A stretch of DNA of 32,000 nucleotides from Haloferax volcanii DS2 (GTDB lineage: Archaea; Halobacteriota; Halobacteria; Halobacteriales; Haloferacaceae): the NCBI RefSeq assembly GCF_000025685.1, contig NC_013966.1:603787-635786 (forward strand), given 5' to 3'. Position numbers and translations under genes: made by a program. Below are positions 26,067-32,000 of this stretch, in pieces (within the stretch, counting starts at the first letter, position 1; every line of letters starts with the position of its first letter). The notes beneath the pieces were generated by a model. The model did no database searches, was not told where the DNA came from, and was given only the letters and a program-made list of their open reading frames with translations.

Positions 26067-26084
26067 ACACCACCATGTCCGCAG
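26067..26084 (+). repeat. Dispersed motif copy F (ACACCACCATGTCCGCAG)
   Basis: Matches the first 18 nt of the ACACCACNNTGTCCGCWGTT consensus shared with five copies at 30741-31798. It lies in the 420-nt intergenic region upstream of the pilin genes. Confidence 0.6.
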
Positions 26085-26394
26085 AAATCGGGAGCGCAGC
26101 AGTTCGAGCGAGTGCGTCGCGCGAGCGGGAGAGTCGGATTCGCGTGTGTAGCGCGTCAGGTCGGCGGTTCAGCACCGACCTCCCCTGCGGATGGTACGCA
26201 GGTGGGATGGAACAGCTTAAATCCCGAATTCGACGGTTAGGAGCGCCCTAACCCCTCGAATAGACCGGTAAGTCGCTGCGAAATTAAATATATCCGGAAC
26301 ATACGGAAGGCCAACAGGAGCCGGAACATGTGGCCGCTCGCGGTCCCGTGCAGGTGGGCACGAGGTGGGTCAGAGGCCGGTCCTGGGTAGAACA

Positions 26395-26826
26395 ATGGAT
26401 ATCAAGAAATTCCTTAGCGAATCACGCGCAGTCTCGCCGGTCATCGGCGTCATCCTCATGGTCGCGATTACCGTCATCCTCGCGGCCGTCATCGGAACCT
26501 TCGTCCTCGGTCTCGGTGACCAGGTCGGTGACACCGCCCCGCAGGCGAGTTTCAGCTTCGACTACGACGGTGCACAGGAAATCACGATCACGCACGAGAG
26601 TGGTGATTCCATCGCCAGCGACGAGCTGAGCGTCGTCATCCCGTCGGGCCTAACCGCGGATACTGTGTCGAAGAAGACCGGCTCCGACGACAGCATGAAC
26701 GCCGGTGACACCATCGTCGTTGAACTTGCAGCCGGCGACGAACTTGAGGACGGCGACCAAGTGCGCCTCGTCTGGACCTCCGAATCCGGTTCCAACTCCG
26801 CGACCCTGCAAACGTACACGCACTAA
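26395..26826 (+). CDS. pilA: Archaeal type IV pilin (class III signal peptide, DUF1628-type)
   Basis: 143 aa from [41 protein letters not shown], with a prepilin-peptidase site (R-A|V-S) and an H-domain like that of Haloferax PilA pilins. Conserved C-terminus [14 protein letters not shown]. Confidence 0.85.
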
Positions 26827-27064: not shown

Positions 27065-27505
27065 ATGCAAATCAAGACAATGTTCACGGAGTCCCGCGCA
27101 GTCTCGCCGGTCATCGGCGTCATCCTCATGGTCGCGATTACCGTCATCCTCGCGGCCGTCATCGGCACCTTCGTTCTCGGTCTCGGCGACCAGGTCGGTG
27201 ACACCGCTCCCCAAGCGAGTTTCACGTTCGACTACGACGGAACGGAACTGACCATCACGCACGAAAGCGGCGCGCAGATTGACGGCGATTTAGTCACTAT
27301 CGCTGGCGATGTCAACGTCACCGATTCGAGTGACGCAAACAAGTGGTCGACCCTCGGCTCAGACACCATCAGCGCGGGTGAGTCCGTCGTCGTCCAAGAC
27401 ACTGACGAGGACGGCTTTGCCAACGGCGACACAGTCCGCGTCGTCTGGACCTCCGAATCCGGCTCCAACTCCGCGACGCTCCAGCGGTGGACCTACAACG
27501 CCTGA
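27065..27505 (+). CDS. pilA: Archaeal type IV pilin paralogue (class III signal peptide, DUF1628-type)
   Basis: 146 aa. [41 protein letters not shown]. It has the same H-domain as the upstream pilin, with 71 nt identical at DNA level, and the same C-terminal [14 protein letters not shown] block. Confidence 0.85.
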   Translation: MQIKTMFTESRAVSPVIGVILMVAITVILAAVIGTFVLGLGDQVGDTAPQASFTFDYDGTELTITHESGAQIDGDLVTIAGDVNVTDSSDANKWSTLGSDTISAGESVVVQDTDEDGFANGDTVRVVWTSESGSNSATLQRWTYNA

Positions 27506-30203: not shown

Positions 30204-30680
30204 ATGCATCCCACGGCACGCAAGTTTGCCGACCAAGTACGCGATTCTCACGGCTTCGAAGCGACCATCGAGGAGTTCCCCGAGGGAACCAAGACGGCCG
30301 ACGACGCGGCTGCGGCCGTCGGCTGCGACGTCGCCCAAATCGTCAAGAGCATCGTGATGCGCGTGGGCGACGAGACGGTCGTCGTCCTCACGAGCGGTGC
30401 GAACCGCGTCGACGAAGCCTCGCTCGGCTCCGAGTTCGATGCCGAACAGGGCTCGGTTCGAAGCGCCAACCCCTCCGAAGTGAAAGCGGCGACCGGTTGG
30501 AGCATCGGCGGCGTACCGCCGACCTGCCACGCGACCGACTGTCCCGTCCTCGCGGACCCGACGTTCGAGTCGTTCGACCGGATTTGGGCCGCTGCGGGAA
30601 CTCCCGAAGCCGTGTTCCAACTCACGCCGGACGACCTGCGGGCGCTTTCCGCGCCGCGGTTCGTCGACGTGTTCGAGTGA
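30204..30680 (+). CDS. YbaK/EbsC-type aminoacyl-tRNA editing (deacylase) domain protein
   Basis: 158 aa. TADDAAAAVGCDVAQIVKSIVM...VVVLTSGANRVD...GWSIGGVPP matches the YbaK/ProRS-associated domain pattern. Confidence 0.75.
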   Translation: MHPTARKFADQVRDSHGFEATIEEFPEGTKTADDAAAAVGCDVAQIVKSIVMRVGDETVVVLTSGANRVDEASLGSEFDAEQGSVRSANPSEVKAATGWSIGGVPPTCHATDCPVLADPTFESFDRIWAAAGTPEAVFQLTPDDLRALSAPRFVDVFE

Positions 30681-30740: not shown

Positions 30741-30762
30741 ACACCACTATGTCCGCTGTTCT
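30741..30762 (+). repeat. Dispersed motif copy A (ACACCACTATGTCCGCTGTTCT)
   Basis: Read directly. Intergenic, between ybaK and the 3' end of aIF-1A. Confidence 0.7.
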
Positions 30763-30866
30763 GGTCGGTCGGCGCGAAGTGAGTATCGCTGGAGAGAAAC
30801 TCCGAGGCTATCGTAGAGCCGCCGCTGGTCGTCAGGCGAGATAAACTCTCCTTTCGGAGAAAATGA

Positions 30867-31151
30867 TTACTGAATGTGGCCTTCGCGCCGAAGCTGGTCC
30901 GCGTCCTCGCCGGTGTAGCGCCATTCGATGTTGGCTTTCTCGTCCTGCCAGTCCCACGGTTCGACCAGCACGACGTCGCCCTCGTTGATCCACGTGCGGT
31001 ACTTCATGCGGCCGGGGATGCGGCCCATGCGGTTCTTTCCGTCTTCACAGCGGATTCGGACGTGGTTGCCACCGTTGTGCTCTGTGACGACTGCGAACAG
31101 CTCGTTGTCGTTGGGCATTCGAAGGTTTCGACGCCCTTGATTTTCACTCAC
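30867..31151 (-). CDS. eif1a: Translation initiation factor aIF-1A
   Basis: (V)[78 protein letters not shown] is the S1-like aIF-1A fold. The conserved GRRNLRMP upstream of the first ATG (31118) argues for the GTG start at 31151. A TATA-like GATAAcTTATC lies at about -23 to -33. Confidence 0.9.
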
Positions 31152-31240
31152 ATTCTTGCTCGGGGACGGAGACGGATAACTTATCGGATACTCGTGATAG
31201 CAAATGTCACGGCGTTGAAACGGAGTGATTGCAGTTTCGA

Positions 31241-31262
31241 ACACCACGTTGTCCGCTGTTTT
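31241..31262 (+). repeat. Dispersed motif copy B (ACACCACGTTGTCCGCTGTTTT)
   Basis: Read directly. It lies 90 nt upstream of the aIF-1A start, in the same orientation as copy A, so A and B bracket aIF-1A as direct repeats 500 nt apart. Confidence 0.7.
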
Positions 31263-31431
31263 CCGACAGATTGGCCGCCAAGAGAGGGAGATACGTCGTG
31301 ACAACGACCCACAAACACTGTTCGAGGTTTCGTTGGTGATTCCGTTGGAGACCTCGTTCGCGGTCGGCCATCGCCGGTTCGTCGTTGGGTGGTCACTGAG
31401 TCGACACTGAGTCGTCGCTGAGAGCAGGCGG

Positions 31432-31471
31432 TGACGAGGTCGTTCACGATTTGACGAGGTCATCCACGATT
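31432..31471 (+). repeat. Tandem direct repeat, 2 x 20 nt (TGACGAGGTCGTTCACGATT / TGACGAGGTCATCCACGATT)
   Basis: 18/20 identical units, head to tail. An 11-nt-period duplication CACTGAGTCG-a-CACTGAGTCG lies just upstream at 31394-31414. Confidence 0.8.
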
Positions 31472-31479
31472 CCCCTACA

Positions 31480-31501
31480 ACACCACTATGTCCGCAGTTG
31501 T
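31480..31501 (+). repeat. Dispersed motif copy C (ACACCACTATGTCCGCAGTTGT)
   Basis: Read directly. It is preceded by a 2 x 20-nt tandem repeat and followed about 20 nt later by an AAAAG-ACG-CTTTT hairpin/T-run. Confidence 0.7.
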
Positions 31502-31704
31502 TCGTCGTGTCAGCTCCTAAAAAGACGCTTTTACCGACTCACGGAACTTCGTAGAGTCACAGAGAACCACGGAGAACGGATTCCGTCGGTAACCGAAGGC
31601 GAGCGACGAAGTCGGTCGACTCGACCGGACGAGACAAACCACGCGATTGTGTGACGACCCGCGTCGACGAGCGGTCGAGACGTGTTCGGTGAGTGTTGAC
31701 ACAG

Positions 31705-31726
31705 ACACCACGTTGTCCGCTGTTCT
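31705..31726 (+). repeat. Dispersed motif copy D (ACACCACGTTGTCCGCTGTTCT)
   Basis: Read directly. It lies 72 nt upstream of copy E and extends as ...CTCG in both. Confidence 0.7.
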
Positions 31727-31776
31727 CGACGAATGTGGGTGTGAAGACGAGTCGGCTGGTGAGACGAGGAACACTC

Positions 31777-31798
31777 ACACCACTTTGTCCGCTGTTCT
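31777..31798 (+). repeat. Dispersed motif copy E (ACACCACTTTGTCCGCTGTTCT)
   Basis: Read directly. This is the last copy, about 60 nt before the AT-rich block. It is followed by a hairpin plus T-run at 31818-31843. Confidence 0.7.
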
Positions 31799-31817
31799 CG
31801 GTGCGAAGCGGTACCCC

Positions 31818-31843
31818 CCGTCGGCGTGAGACGGCTCTTTTCC
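31818..31843 (+). terminator. Hairpin plus T-run (CCGTC-ggcgtga-GACGG-CTCTTTTCC)
   Basis: A 5-bp GC-rich stem followed by an oligo-T-containing tract, the kind of signal used for archaeal termination. It lies downstream of motif copies D and E. Confidence 0.3.
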
Positions 31844-31854
31844 ACGGATTTCCA

Positions 31855-32000
31855 ATCGGGAAGGTTAGTTTAGATGTATAGATAAGCGAATAAAACAAGC
31901 CGTCCTCAAACAGCTACTATATAACTATTATAGTTGCCCGTATTACGGACTTAGTTTAAATTATAGTATTATAAACCTTTCTCTATATCAAGACAAACAA
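31855..32000. other. Abrupt AT-rich block at the window edge (compositionally foreign or regulatory DNA)
   Basis: The sequence switches from GC-rich to roughly 70% A+T (TAGATGTATAGATAAGCGAATAAAAC...TATATAACTATTATAGTT...TTTAAATTATAGTATTATAAAC). No ORF is present, and the block continues beyond the window. Confidence 0.6.

What the first reader, a model, noticed from the sequence alone, without database searches (positions are those of the whole stretch)
30741..31798. Family of 20-22 nt direct repeats (ACACCACNNTGTCCGCWGTT) bracketing aIF-1A and filling an ORF-poor stretch
Seen directly:
- Five same-orientation copies lie at 30741, 31241, 31480, 31705 and 31777. A sixth lies at 26067.
- Spacing is irregular (500, 239, 225, 72 nt), so this is not a CRISPR array.
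- Copies A and B flank the aIF-1A gene as direct repeats.
- The only variable positions inside the core are 8, 9 and 17.
- In one reading frame these are the third base of an ACN Thr codon, the first base of ATG/TTG, and the third base of a GCN Ala codon. Every copy therefore reads (N/H/D)-T-T-(M/L)-S-A-(V/E).
- That synonymous-looking pattern hints at a short conserved peptide or start region. However, the downstream ORFs are short, unrelated and not halophile-like in composition.
- T-run or hairpin signals follow copies C and E within about 20-45 nt.

Possible explanations, which I cannot separate:
(a) 5' ends of a family of small RNAs or micro-ORFs.
(b) Accreted att-site scars from repeated integration next to the AT-rich block at 31855+.
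(c) An array of binding sites for a DNA-binding protein.

I do not recognise the motif from any described haloarchaeal element.
Basis: seen in the sequence. Interest (0 to 1): 0.72.

Follow-up and report, generated by a model that had tools for sequence, protein, structure and literature searches.

The report
Origin recognition boxes of ori-pHV4
The repeats are real, but they are the already published initiator-binding sites (origin recognition boxes) of ori-pHV4, the replication origin next to the orc3 gene on Haloferax volcanii megaplasmid pHV4, so the finding is ordinary.

Summary
Five exact same-strand copies of ACACCACNNTGTCCGCWGTT lie at 30741, 31241, 31480, 31705 and 31777, and a 2-mismatch copy lies at 26067. 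None is expected by chance.

The window is the last 32 kb of the Haloferax volcanii DS2 pHV4 record. Its last 222 nt match the published "pHV4 Orc3" origin sequence letter for letter. The initiator gene orc3 (HVO_A0001) starts 151 nt past the window end.

The "AT-rich block" is only about 150 bp long. It is the duplex unwinding element (DUE), not a foreign island. An inverted copy carrying a G-string (AGAACAGCGGACAAAGTGGAGGGGGTGTG) faces copy E across it.

Read on the other strand, the motif is AACWGCGGACANNGTGGTGT. This is the origin recognition box (ORB) type of the Orc3/Cdc6M/Cdc6K origin family.

In a scan of public genomes, 56 of 66 haloarchaeal 8-kb tiles with three or more copies also held an Orc3-like gene. 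Bacterial hits were single copies.

Norais et al. 2007 described this 688-bp region, its DUE and its "direct repeats different from the ORB consensus". They also showed that it replicates autonomously.

The peptide, small-RNA and att-scar readings fail comparative tests. The "protein-binding array" reading is right.

Verdict: already known, low interest.

The parts
26067..26086 (+). Outlying ORB-like copy ACACCACCATGTCCGCAGAA (2 mismatches). It lies 4.7 kb from the main array, between the DUF7964 gene and the first pilin gene.
   Evidence: The same copy sits at the same relative place in sister Haloferax strains and in H. gibbonsii.
30741..30760 (+). ORB copy A (ACACCACTATGTCCGCTGTT). It lies between the stop of the YbaK/tRNA_edit gene and the stop of aIF-1A. 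In ORB convention it reads AACAGCGGACATAGTGGTGT on the minus strand.
   Evidence: Conserved downstream of the YbaK gene in H. gibbonsii, H. mediterranei and other Haloferax.
30867..31151 (-). aIF-1A paralogue gene (94 aa, GTG start). It is a bystander gene lying inside the ORB array, not part of the repeat system.
   Evidence: annotated eif1A, Pfam PF01176. It is linked to the motif only within Haloferax: 4 of 58 Orc3-bearing tiles.
31241..31260 (+). ORB copy B (ACACCACGTTGTCCGCTGTT). It lies about 90 nt upstream of the aIF-1A start codon, on the opposite strand.
   Evidence: Conserved in sister species.
31464..32000 (.). The part inside the window of the 688-bp 'translation initiation factor - orc3' intergenic region of Norais et al. 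2007 (ori-pHV4-2, now called ori-pHV4). It continues for 151 nt at pHV4 positions 1-151.
   Evidence: paper text. The 198-aa ORF 30867-31463 gives 31464..32151 = 688 bp. One search shows that 151 nt remain before orc3. The orc3-deletion primer MHorc3F1, apart from its engineered site, matches window 31441-31468, compared by eye.
31480..31499 (+). ORB copy C (ACACCACTATGTCCGCAGTT).
31705..31724 (+). ORB copy D (ACACCACGTTGTCCGCTGTT).
   Evidence: It aligns as a conserved block in most of the 18 aligned origins.
31769..31797 (+). ORB copy E, the left box nearest the unwinding element. The extended conserved block is AACACTCACACCACTTTGTCCGCTGTTCT. Its GT-rich tail points away from the unwinding element. 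Its inverted partner lies just past the window end, at pHV4 about 38-67.
   Evidence: conserved in most of the 18 aligned origins.
31813..31818 (.). C-string (CCCCCC) between copy E and the unwinding element.
   Evidence: In the alignment several origins carry a G- or C-run at this place, in either orientation. [quoted passage not shown]
31855..32000 (.). AT-rich duplex unwinding element (60-80% A+T). It ends about 5 nt past the window end. It holds the conserved motifs TACGGA (31944-31949) and ATAAACCTT (31971-31979).
   Evidence: Composition. Conserved columns. Described as the DUE in Norais 2007.

Best explanation
What it is: the repeats are the origin recognition boxes (ORBs) of ori-pHV4. 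This is the replication origin next to orc3 (HVO_A0001) on megaplasmid pHV4 of Haloferax volcanii DS2.

Shown here or in the literature:
- The window ends 151 nt before orc3.
- A roughly 150-bp AT-rich unwinding element is flanked by copy E on the left and an inverted, G-string-bearing copy on the right.
- The region replicates autonomously and is used as an origin.
- Across haloarchaea the motif co-occurs with Orc3-type initiator genes.

Inferred from homology to Orc1 proteins solved on ORB DNA:
- One Orc3 monomer binds each box with fixed polarity, using its winged-helix domain and its AAA+ domain.
- The inverted pair bends and opens the AT-rich DNA and loads MCM helicase there.

Inferred by analogy with H. 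hispanica oriC2D:
- The extra same-orientation copies A-D, and the six copies downstream of orc3, raise local Orc3 occupancy or titrate Orc3 and so tune firing.

Inferred from position:
- A composite box abuts the likely orc3 TATA element and probably gives autorepression.

That two boxes bracket aIF-1A is an accident of Haloferax gene order.
For: Identity of the locus:
- Window 31779-32000 is identical to the 'pHV4 Orc3' origin sequence in Wu et al. 2012, Additional file 4. The 151 nt that remain reach the orc3 start at position 152.
- Norais et al. 2007 describe a 688-bp region between a translation initiation factor gene and orc3. [quoted passage not shown] 31464..32151 is exactly 688 bp.

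Anatomy:
- In 98-99% identical strains, and in H. gibbonsii and H. mediterranei, five + copies lie left of the DUE.
- One inverted copy with GTGGAGGGGGTGTG, plus a composite box, lies right of the DUE. In those loci that extend past orc, six more copies lie downstream of it.

Footprint:
- In 18 aligned origins the boxes are conserved or invariant, while the spacers are barely alignable.

Linkage to the initiator:
- 56 of 66 haloarchaeal 8-kb tiles with three or more copies hold an Orc3-like gene of at least 70% identity.
- Of 472 copies in orc-bearing tiles, 377 lie within 700 nt of the orc gene and none lies inside it.
- All 18 non-haloarchaeal tiles hold a single copy.
- Orc3 is the only neighbour present in all 58 Orc3-bearing tiles.

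The protein:
- It scores 436.7 bits on TIGR02928 (cut-off 181.3). It matches the DNA-bound structures 2V1U and 2QBY_A at E about 1e-67.

Function in relatives:
- oriP2-cdc6M is the active pHM500 origin. Cdc6M is 98-99% identical to Orc3, and H. volcanii oriP1-orc3 replicates in H. mediterranei.
- oriP-cdc6K is essential on pHH400 and carries the same motif.
- ori-pHV4 is a used origin in laboratory strains.
Against: - No direct binding of Orc3 to these boxes was tested here, and I found no published ChIP or footprint for Orc3.
- The core shares little with the euryarchaeal mini-ORB consensus GTTCCAGTGGAAAC beyond GTGG. Norais et al. say the repeats differ from that consensus.
- Among the copies around the DUE, only the box to its right has a clear G-string. 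The others have a GT-rich tail.
- pCN27 gave few transformants, and ori-pHV4 is the least active chromosomal origin.
- The roles proposed for the distal copies and for the composite promoter box rest on analogy and position only.
- The sequence past the window end was read from the paper and from 98-99% identical strains, not from the DS2 record itself.
Confidence: 0.93

Rival explanations
1. The boxes are centromere-like or operator sites for another protein encoded nearby. One candidate is the partner of the ParA-DUF7970 partition operon just downstream of orc3. They would serve plasmid segregation or transcription control rather than initiation.
For: - In Haloferax a ParA-family gene and a DUF7970 gene follow orc3, and six copies fill the orc3-DUF7970 intergenic region.
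- Outlying copies lie beside unrelated genes.
- No direct Orc3 binding data exist.
Against: - Only 14 of 58 Orc3-bearing tiles with motif copies hold a ParA homologue and only 12 hold DUF7970, whereas Orc3 is in all 58.
- The best conserved copies are the inverted pair flanking the unwinding element, one of them with a G-string. That is the ORB layout.
- The orc3 fragment with its upstream region is enough for autonomous replication in H. mediterranei.
Confidence: 0.04
2. Each box marks the 5' end of a small RNA or a micro-ORF that begins (M/L)-S-A-V.
For: - All six window copies read T-T-(M/L)-S-A in one frame.
- Position 9 gives ATG, GTG or TTG in 448 of 521 family copies.
- Short T runs follow copies C and E.
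Against: - ORF length from the xTG has a median of 28 codons, no longer than the other frames at 21 and 28.
- Information content falls to about 0 bits within 3 nt of the core on both sides, with no TATA-like signal, in 532 copies.
- Copies occur on both strands within one intergenic region.
- Spacers carry indels, such as a 16-nt insertion between copies B and C in L003.
- There is no Rfam match.
- Transcript data for this locus could not be checked.
Confidence: 0.02
3. The boxes are accreted att-site scars left by repeated integration of mobile elements beside AT-rich foreign DNA.
For: Same-orientation direct repeats with irregular spacing lie next to DNA whose G+C drops sharply.
Against: - The AT-rich block is about 150 bp, holds conserved motifs, and is followed by an inverted copy and the orc3 gene.
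- No tRNA lies in the window, and no integrase is among the called genes within 10 kb.
- The same layout recurs next to Orc3-type genes in many genera.
- Viral contigs give zero hits.
Confidence: 0.01

Closest known systems
ori-pHV4 (first called ori-pHV4-2; oriP1-orc3) of Haloferax volcanii. Sources: Norais et al. 2007, PLoS Genet 3:e77; Wu et al. 2012, BMC Genomics 13:478, Additional file 4.
   Same: It is the same locus. The last 222 nt of the window are identical to the printed origin sequence. It lies between the aIF-1A and orc3 genes, and the 688-bp size matches.
   Different: - Wu et al. print only the stretch from copy E to orc3.
- Norais et al. cover 31464 onward, which includes copies C, D and E.
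- Copies A and B around aIF-1A, the copy at 26067, and the cluster downstream of orc3 lie outside those published stretches as far as I could read. The figures are not held in the library.
oriP2-cdc6M of H. mediterranei pHM500 and oriP-cdc6K of Haloarcula hispanica pHH400.
   Same: - They carry the same ORB core: ACACCACNNTGTCCGCTGTT, which is AACAGCGGACANNGTGGTGT on the other strand.
- They have the same inverted G-string box and the same composite box before the initiator gene.
- Both are experimentally active origins.
   Different: - They are on different replicons with different neighbouring genes.
- Haloarcula Orc3-like initiators are only 71-79% identical to Orc3.
- In H. mediterranei further genes lie between aIF-1A and the origin.
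Canonical euryarchaeal ORB / mini-ORB (GTTCCAGTGGAAAC-AAA----GGGGG) at oriC1-type origins.
   Same: - The boxes lie beside an orc1/cdc6 gene, with an inverted pair around an AT-rich unwinding element.
- The G-rich tail points away from the DUE.
- The initiator is homologous to Orc1 proteins solved on ORB DNA.
   Different: - The core sequence is different and not dyad-symmetric.
- Among the copies around the DUE, only the box to its right has a clear G-string.
oriC2D, the ORB-rich region downstream of cdc6E in H. hispanica, which controls the origin negatively by titrating the initiator (Wu et al. 2014, NAR 42:2282).
   Same: A cluster of ORBs lies in the intergenic region directly downstream of the initiator gene. 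Here there are six copies in about 500 bp.
   Different: It belongs to a different Orc/ORB family. No genetic test of the orc3-downstream cluster exists, so the similarity is positional only.
Bacterial DnaA boxes with datA, and plasmid iterons.
   Same: They work alike: repeated initiator-binding sites beside an unwinding element and the initiator gene. Extra sites are likely used for titration and autoregulation.
   Different: The protein family is unrelated (AAA+ Orc1/Cdc6 with a winged helix, versus DnaA or Rep). This is not a case of membership.

Membership tests
Archaeal origin recognition boxes at an Orc1/Cdc6-adjacent origin | Repeats lie in the intergenic DNA directly beside an orc1/cdc6 gene. 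| tested here: met
   orc3 starts 151 nt past the window end. The gene is called in all ten sister loci and annotated in RefSeq. It scores 436.7 bits on TIGR02928 against a cut-off of 181.3.
Archaeal origin recognition boxes at an Orc1/Cdc6-adjacent origin | An AT-rich unwinding element is flanked by at least one inverted pair of boxes. | tested here: met
   The DUE runs from 31855 to about 32005 at 60-80% A+T. Copy E lies to its left. An inverted copy lies to its right in the published DS2 sequence and in the sister loci examined. The inverted pair is conserved in most of the 18 aligned origins.
Archaeal origin recognition boxes at an Orc1/Cdc6-adjacent origin | A G-string sits at the end of the box, as in haloarchaeal ORBs. 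| tested here: inconclusive
   The box to the right of the DUE has GTGGAGGGGGTGTG, which is invariant or nearly so in 18 origins. The window copies have only a GT-rich tail (GTGGTGTG). 147 of 532 family copies have GGGG in the tail region.
Archaeal origin recognition boxes at an Orc1/Cdc6-adjacent origin | Sequence matches the mini-ORB consensus GTTCCAGTGGAAAC. | tested here: not met
   Compared by eye with the family consensus AGAACWGCGGACANNGTGGTGT, only GTGG is shared. Norais et al. also call the repeats different from the consensus. Wu et al. 2012 show that each haloarchaeal Orc family has its own ORB, so this feature defines the oriC1 type rather than ORBs in general.
Archaeal origin recognition boxes at an Orc1/Cdc6-adjacent origin | The box type is specifically linked to one initiator family across genomes. 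| tested here: met
   56 of 66 multi-copy haloarchaeal tiles hold an Orc3-like gene. None of 27 single-copy haloarchaeal tiles and none of 18 non-haloarchaeal tiles does. Orc3 is the only neighbour common to all 58 Orc3-bearing tiles.
Archaeal origin recognition boxes at an Orc1/Cdc6-adjacent origin | The region shows origin activity, by autonomous replication or by a peak in marker frequency. | not testable with these tools
   Literature only: pCN27 showed ARS activity. ori-pHV4 is used in laboratory strains. oriP1-orc3 replicates in H. mediterranei, and oriP2-cdc6M gives a marker-frequency peak.
Archaeal origin recognition boxes at an Orc1/Cdc6-adjacent origin | The initiator binds the box directly. 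| not testable with these tools
   No Orc3 ChIP or footprint was found. The only support is homology to 2V1U and 2QBY, which were solved on ORB DNA.
att sites of integrated mobile elements | Direct repeats bound a foreign segment that carries an integrase, often at a tRNA gene. | tested here: not met
   There is no tRNA and no integrase among the genes within 10 kb. The AT-rich segment is about 150 bp and is conserved.
CRISPR array | Repeats are regularly spaced, with unique spacers of near-constant length. | tested here: not met
   Spacings are 500, 239, 225 and 72 nt, and a gene lies between two of the copies.
Family of small RNAs or micro-ORFs | A conserved promoter lies upstream, with conserved transcript or peptide sequence downstream of the shared 5' motif. 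| tested here: not met
   Flanks carry about 0 bits of information. ORF length from the xTG is no longer than in the other frames. Copies occur in both orientations. There is no Rfam hit. Transcript data were not available.

The most novel reading that the evidence does not exclude
The copies away from the unwinding element are not spare initiation sites. They would form an Orc3 titration and regulatory network specific to this replicon.

The copies concerned are:
- A to D, in one orientation and enclosing the aIF-1A paralogue;
- the six downstream of orc3;
- the outliers at 26067 and beside msrA;
- single copies tens of kb away on Orc3-type replicons in other genera, whose positions are conserved between sister species.

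Such a network would set megaplasmid copy number and couple it to the expression of neighbouring genes, like datA and DnaA boxes in bacteria. It would extend the single oriC2D precedent to a whole origin family.
Probability: 0.3. Interest if true: 0.4.

Novelty: already known. Interest (0 to 1): 0.1.

Why it matters
For a genome scan, this shows that a striking and statistically impossible repeat family can simply be the ORB array of a replication origin whose initiator gene lies just off the end of the window. Here it lies across the start of a circular record.

The biology is textbook for haloarchaea and was published in 2007 and 2012.

The small added value is:
- a fuller map of this ORB type, about 14 copies spanning roughly 10 kb around orc3;
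- a clade-wide consensus, AGAACWGCGGACANNGTGGTGT;
- a footprint that exposes a likely autoregulatory box at the orc3 promoter and two conserved motifs inside the unwinding element.

These are testable in H. volcanii, a species where origins can be deleted. They could help explain how initiator dosage controls megaplasmid copy number.

Tried and rejected
- Rfam scan of the whole window: no family.
- tRNA scan: none.
- Scan of viral contigs for the motif: 0 hits, so there is no sign of a virus-borne element.
- PLSDB search: found sister Haloferax plasmids but not pHV4 itself.
- Fetching NC_013966 by accession failed, because it is not in the held collections. The DNA past the window end was therefore taken from Wu et al. 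2012 and from 98-99% identical strains.
- None of the ten loci from the exact-protein look-up is identical to the window; they are 98.3-98.9% identical over the full-length alignments.
- The dRNA-seq supplements of Babski et al. 2016 held in the library contain no entries for HVO_A0001, HVO_A0636 or HVO_A0637, nor for the coordinates. The transcription-start test could not be done.
- A crude ORF and GC3 look at the single dispersed copies was noisy. Some fall inside probable genes and some in AT-rich intergenic DNA, and no common neighbour emerged.
- One paper search failed on syntax.
- CRISPR, att-scar, micro-ORF and small-RNA readings were considered and rejected. The reasons are in the rival explanations and the membership tests.
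Full report
**1. Observation**

Copies at 30741, 31241, 31480, 31705 and 31777 have no mismatch. The copy at 26067 has two. All are on the + strand, and 100 dinucleotide shuffles gave no match. The repeat finder recovers the same family and the same spacings. Allowing up to five mismatches adds only three 5-mismatch hits, against 2.7 per shuffle at that level. The window has no tRNA and no Rfam family. aIF-1A lies on the minus strand at 30867-31151, so copies A and B do bracket it. G+C falls from about 0.65-0.70 to 0.50 in the last 500 nt.

**2. Where the window comes from**

- An exact-protein look-up of the YbaK-like ORF (30204-30680) returned ten Haloferax loci. In every one, aIF-1A is followed by about 1 kb of intergenic DNA and then a 416-aa (424 aa in one call) Orc1/Cdc6 gene, a DUF7970 gene and a ParA gene.
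- Those loci are 98.3-98.9% identical to the window over the full-length alignments, not identical.
- Wu et al. 2012 (BMC Genomics 13:478), Additional file 4, prints the predicted origin next to H. volcanii DS2 pHV4 Orc3. The last 222 nt of the window equal the start of that sequence letter for letter. Exactly 151 nt remain, and the paper places orc3 at 152-1402 of the record.
- The window therefore ends at the last base of the circular pHV4 record, which is 635,786 bp long. Window coordinate x corresponds to pHV4 603,786 + x.
- The orc3-deletion primer MHorc3F1 from Ausiannikava et al. 2018, apart from its engineered site, matches window 31441-31468, compared by eye.

**3. What is past the window end**

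The AT-rich DNA runs only from about 31855 to about 32005, at 60-80% A+T. It is followed by these features, read from the printed sequence:
- an inverted copy with a G-string, AGAACAGCGGACAAAGTGGAGGGGGTGTG;
- a TATA-like stretch;
- a composite box, GAGAACAGCGGACACTCCGGACGCGGTGGTTTTAT;
- the orc3 start codon.

Sister strains, H. gibbonsii and H. mediterranei show the same plan:
- five + copies left of the AT-rich element, the nearest with the extended sequence AACACTCACACCAC...;
- one or two inverted copies right of it.

In the loci that extend past orc (sister strains and H. gibbonsii) there are also:
- six more copies, in both orientations, in the convergent intergenic region downstream of orc (one search shows that region);
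- one outlier about 4.7 kb to the left, which is 26067 in the window;
- one outlier about 2.2 kb to the right, just past msrA.

**4. Comparative tests**

*Footprint.* I aligned 480 nt upstream of the Orc3-like gene from 18 origins in Haloferax, Halobellus, Halogeometricum, Salinigranum, Halobonum and Halolamina. The spacers are barely alignable. The conserved blocks are:
- the left box;
- TACGGA and ATAAAYCTT inside the AT-rich element;
- the right G-string box;
- the composite box ending in GGTGGTTTTAT, about 30 nt before the start codon.

The right box and the composite box are invariant or nearly so.

It gave 102 haloarchaeal tiles and 18 from other organisms (classed by record title).
- All 18 non-haloarchaeal tiles hold a single copy. 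That is about what chance gives in 596 Gb (my estimate).
- Of 66 haloarchaeal tiles with three or more copies at up to two mismatches, 56 hold an Orc3-like gene of at least 70% identity.
- At least three of the other ten (L014, L083 and L127) are neighbouring tiles of contigs that do hold one.
- Of 472 copies in orc-bearing tiles, none lies inside the orc gene and 377 lie within 700 nt of it.
- aIF-1A, YbaK, ParA and DUF7970 accompany the motif only in some tiles, nearly all of them Haloferax. Orc3 is in all 58 Orc3-bearing tiles.
- Viral contigs gave no hit.

*The protein.* It is a full-length Orc1/Cdc6. It scores 436.7 bits on TIGR02928 against a cut-off of 181.3. It matches A. pernix ORC1 (2V1U) and S. 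solfataricus Orc1-1 (2QBY_A) at E about 1e-67. From my own knowledge, both structures were solved on origin DNA.

**5. What the literature already says**

- Norais et al. 2007 (PLoS Genet 3:e77) describe a 688-bp intergenic region on the pHV4 contig. [quoted passage not shown] Cloned as pCN27 (ori-pHV4-2), it gave ARS activity, though with few transformants.
- If the 198-aa ORF 30867-31463 is taken as that factor gene, 31464..32151 is exactly 688 bp. Their region therefore includes copies C, D and E.
- Later work names Orc3 (HVO_A0001) as the ori-pHV4 initiator and treats ori-pHV4 as a used origin, the least active of the four on the chromosome of laboratory strains.
- Yang et al. 2015 found that H. 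mediterranei oriP2-cdc6M is the active pHM500 origin, that Cdc6M is 98% identical to Orc3, and that H. volcanii oriP1-orc3 replicates in H. mediterranei. I confirmed 99% identity over 247 aa.
- The H. hispanica oriP-cdc6K origin carries the same boxes and is essential for pHH400.
- Wu et al. 2012 also quote a closely similar ORB-like element, TAACAGCGGAAACAGTGGGGTGGGGGGGT, from two other genera. They argue that each Orc family has its own ORB type.

**6. Mechanism**

*Shown:* the anatomy, the conservation, the linkage to Orc3-type genes, and, from the literature, origin activity.

*Inferred from homology to solved Orc1-DNA complexes:* one Orc3 binds each box with fixed polarity. The inverted pair around the 150-bp AT-rich element positions MCM loading there. 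The G/GT-rich tails of both flanking boxes point away from the element. As I read the mutant description, H. hispanica oriC1 has the same layout.

*Inferred by analogy:*
- The C-string at 31813-31818 may act like the G-rich inverted repeat that enhances oriC1.
- The six-copy cluster downstream of orc3, and copies A-D, may titrate or concentrate Orc3. The ORB-rich oriC2D does this for Cdc6E.

*Inferred from position:* the composite box abuts TTTTAT about 30 nt before the start codon. That distance suits a leaderless haloarchaeal promoter, so Orc3 probably represses its own gene.

**7.

- *Peptide or micro-ORF.* The frame arithmetic is right. In 521 family copies the internal codon is ATG, GTG or TTG in 448. 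However, ORFs from it have a median of 28 codons, against 21 and 28 in the other frames. The flanks carry about 0 bits of information. Copies occur on both strands, and spacers carry indels.
- *Small RNAs.* There is no conserved upstream TATA signal or downstream sequence and no Rfam hit. Transcript data could not be reached.
- *att scars.* These are refuted by the short, conserved AT-rich element, by the inverted partner, and by the absence of a tRNA or an integrase.
- *Another binding protein.* A partition protein remains a minor rival, because nobody has shown Orc3 on these boxes. But ParA and DUF7970 are present in only 14 and 12 of the 58 Orc3-bearing tiles.

**8. Verdict**

The thing itself is the known ORB array of the known origin ori-pHV4.

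Beyond the published stretches I add only detail:
- copies A and B around aIF-1A;
- the outliers;
- the cluster downstream of orc3;
- a clade-wide consensus;
- the promoter and DUE footprints;
- the observation that single exact copies recur elsewhere on Orc3-type replicons.

Novelty: already known. Interest: low.

Noticed in passing
L003 11903-11937; pHV4 91-124 in the published sequence, just outside the window: A composite box, GAGAACAGCGGACACTCCGGACGCGGTGGTTTTAT, is almost invariant in 18 origins. It holds two CGGAC half-sites and ends in TTTTAT about 30 nt before the orc3 start codon. It looks like an Orc3 operator overlapping the promoter of a leaderless orc3 mRNA.
   Followed up: partly
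window 31944-31949 and 31971-31979: Inside the AT-rich unwinding element, TACGGA and ATAAACCTT (consensus ATAAAYCTT) are conserved across genera while the rest of the element varies. ACGGAC resembles the CGGAC core of the box.
   Followed up: partly
window 31813-31818: A C-run lies between copy E and the unwinding element. Several of the aligned origins have a G-run or a C-run at the same place, in either orientation. This recalls the G-rich inverted repeat that enhances H. hispanica oriC1.
   Followed up: partly
L003 13232-13721 (also L004, L011 and L013): Six further copies in mixed orientation fill the roughly 600-bp convergent intergenic region between orc3 and the DUF7970-ParA operon. No obvious AT-rich element is present there. 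The layout resembles the initiator-titrating oriC2D region of H. hispanica.
   Followed up: partly
window 26067-26086; L003 15895-15914: Two outlying copies, about 4.7 kb left and about 2.2 kb right of the origin, are conserved in position in H. gibbonsii. One follows the DUF7964 gene and the other follows msrA. Their role is unknown.
   Followed up: partly
L024/L050/L092 (Halobellus), L023/L117 (Haloferax larsenii and H. elongans), L035/L051/L061 (plasmid pHfr3) and others: Single exact copies recur elsewhere in haloarchaeal genomes, in several cases tens of kb from the origin on the same contig or plasmid as an Orc3-type origin. By my own estimate this is far above chance for haloarchaeal genomes. 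Their sequence context is often conserved between sister species. Some seem to lie inside genes.
   Followed up: partly
window 26365-26826 and 27065-27505: Two tandem type IV pilin-like genes (Pilin_N) share a 180-nt N-terminal repeat at 89% identity. Sister strains carry two or three such genes of differing length, so this locus varies in copy number.
   Followed up: no
L012 9621-10361 versus L004 11964-13214: The Orc3-type protein is 99% identical between H. mediterranei and the H. volcanii group. Yet megablast aligned only the aIF-1A stretch of the surrounding DNA, and in the origin alignment little beyond the boxes is conserved. This suggests very strong constraint or recent transfer of the initiator gene.
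   Followed up: no
family copies in L011-L133: At the second variable position the family prefers A, then G, then T, then C. The internal triplet is therefore ATG, GTG, TTG or CTG in 213, 143, 92 and 44 of 521 copies. It looks like a start-codon bias but has no ORF signal behind it.
   Followed up: yes
L003 11168-11183, compared with window about 31370: L003 has a 16-nt insertion in the spacer between copies B and C, seemingly a duplication of adjacent sequence (gcggtcggccat...). It shows that the spacers tolerate indels.
   Followed up: no
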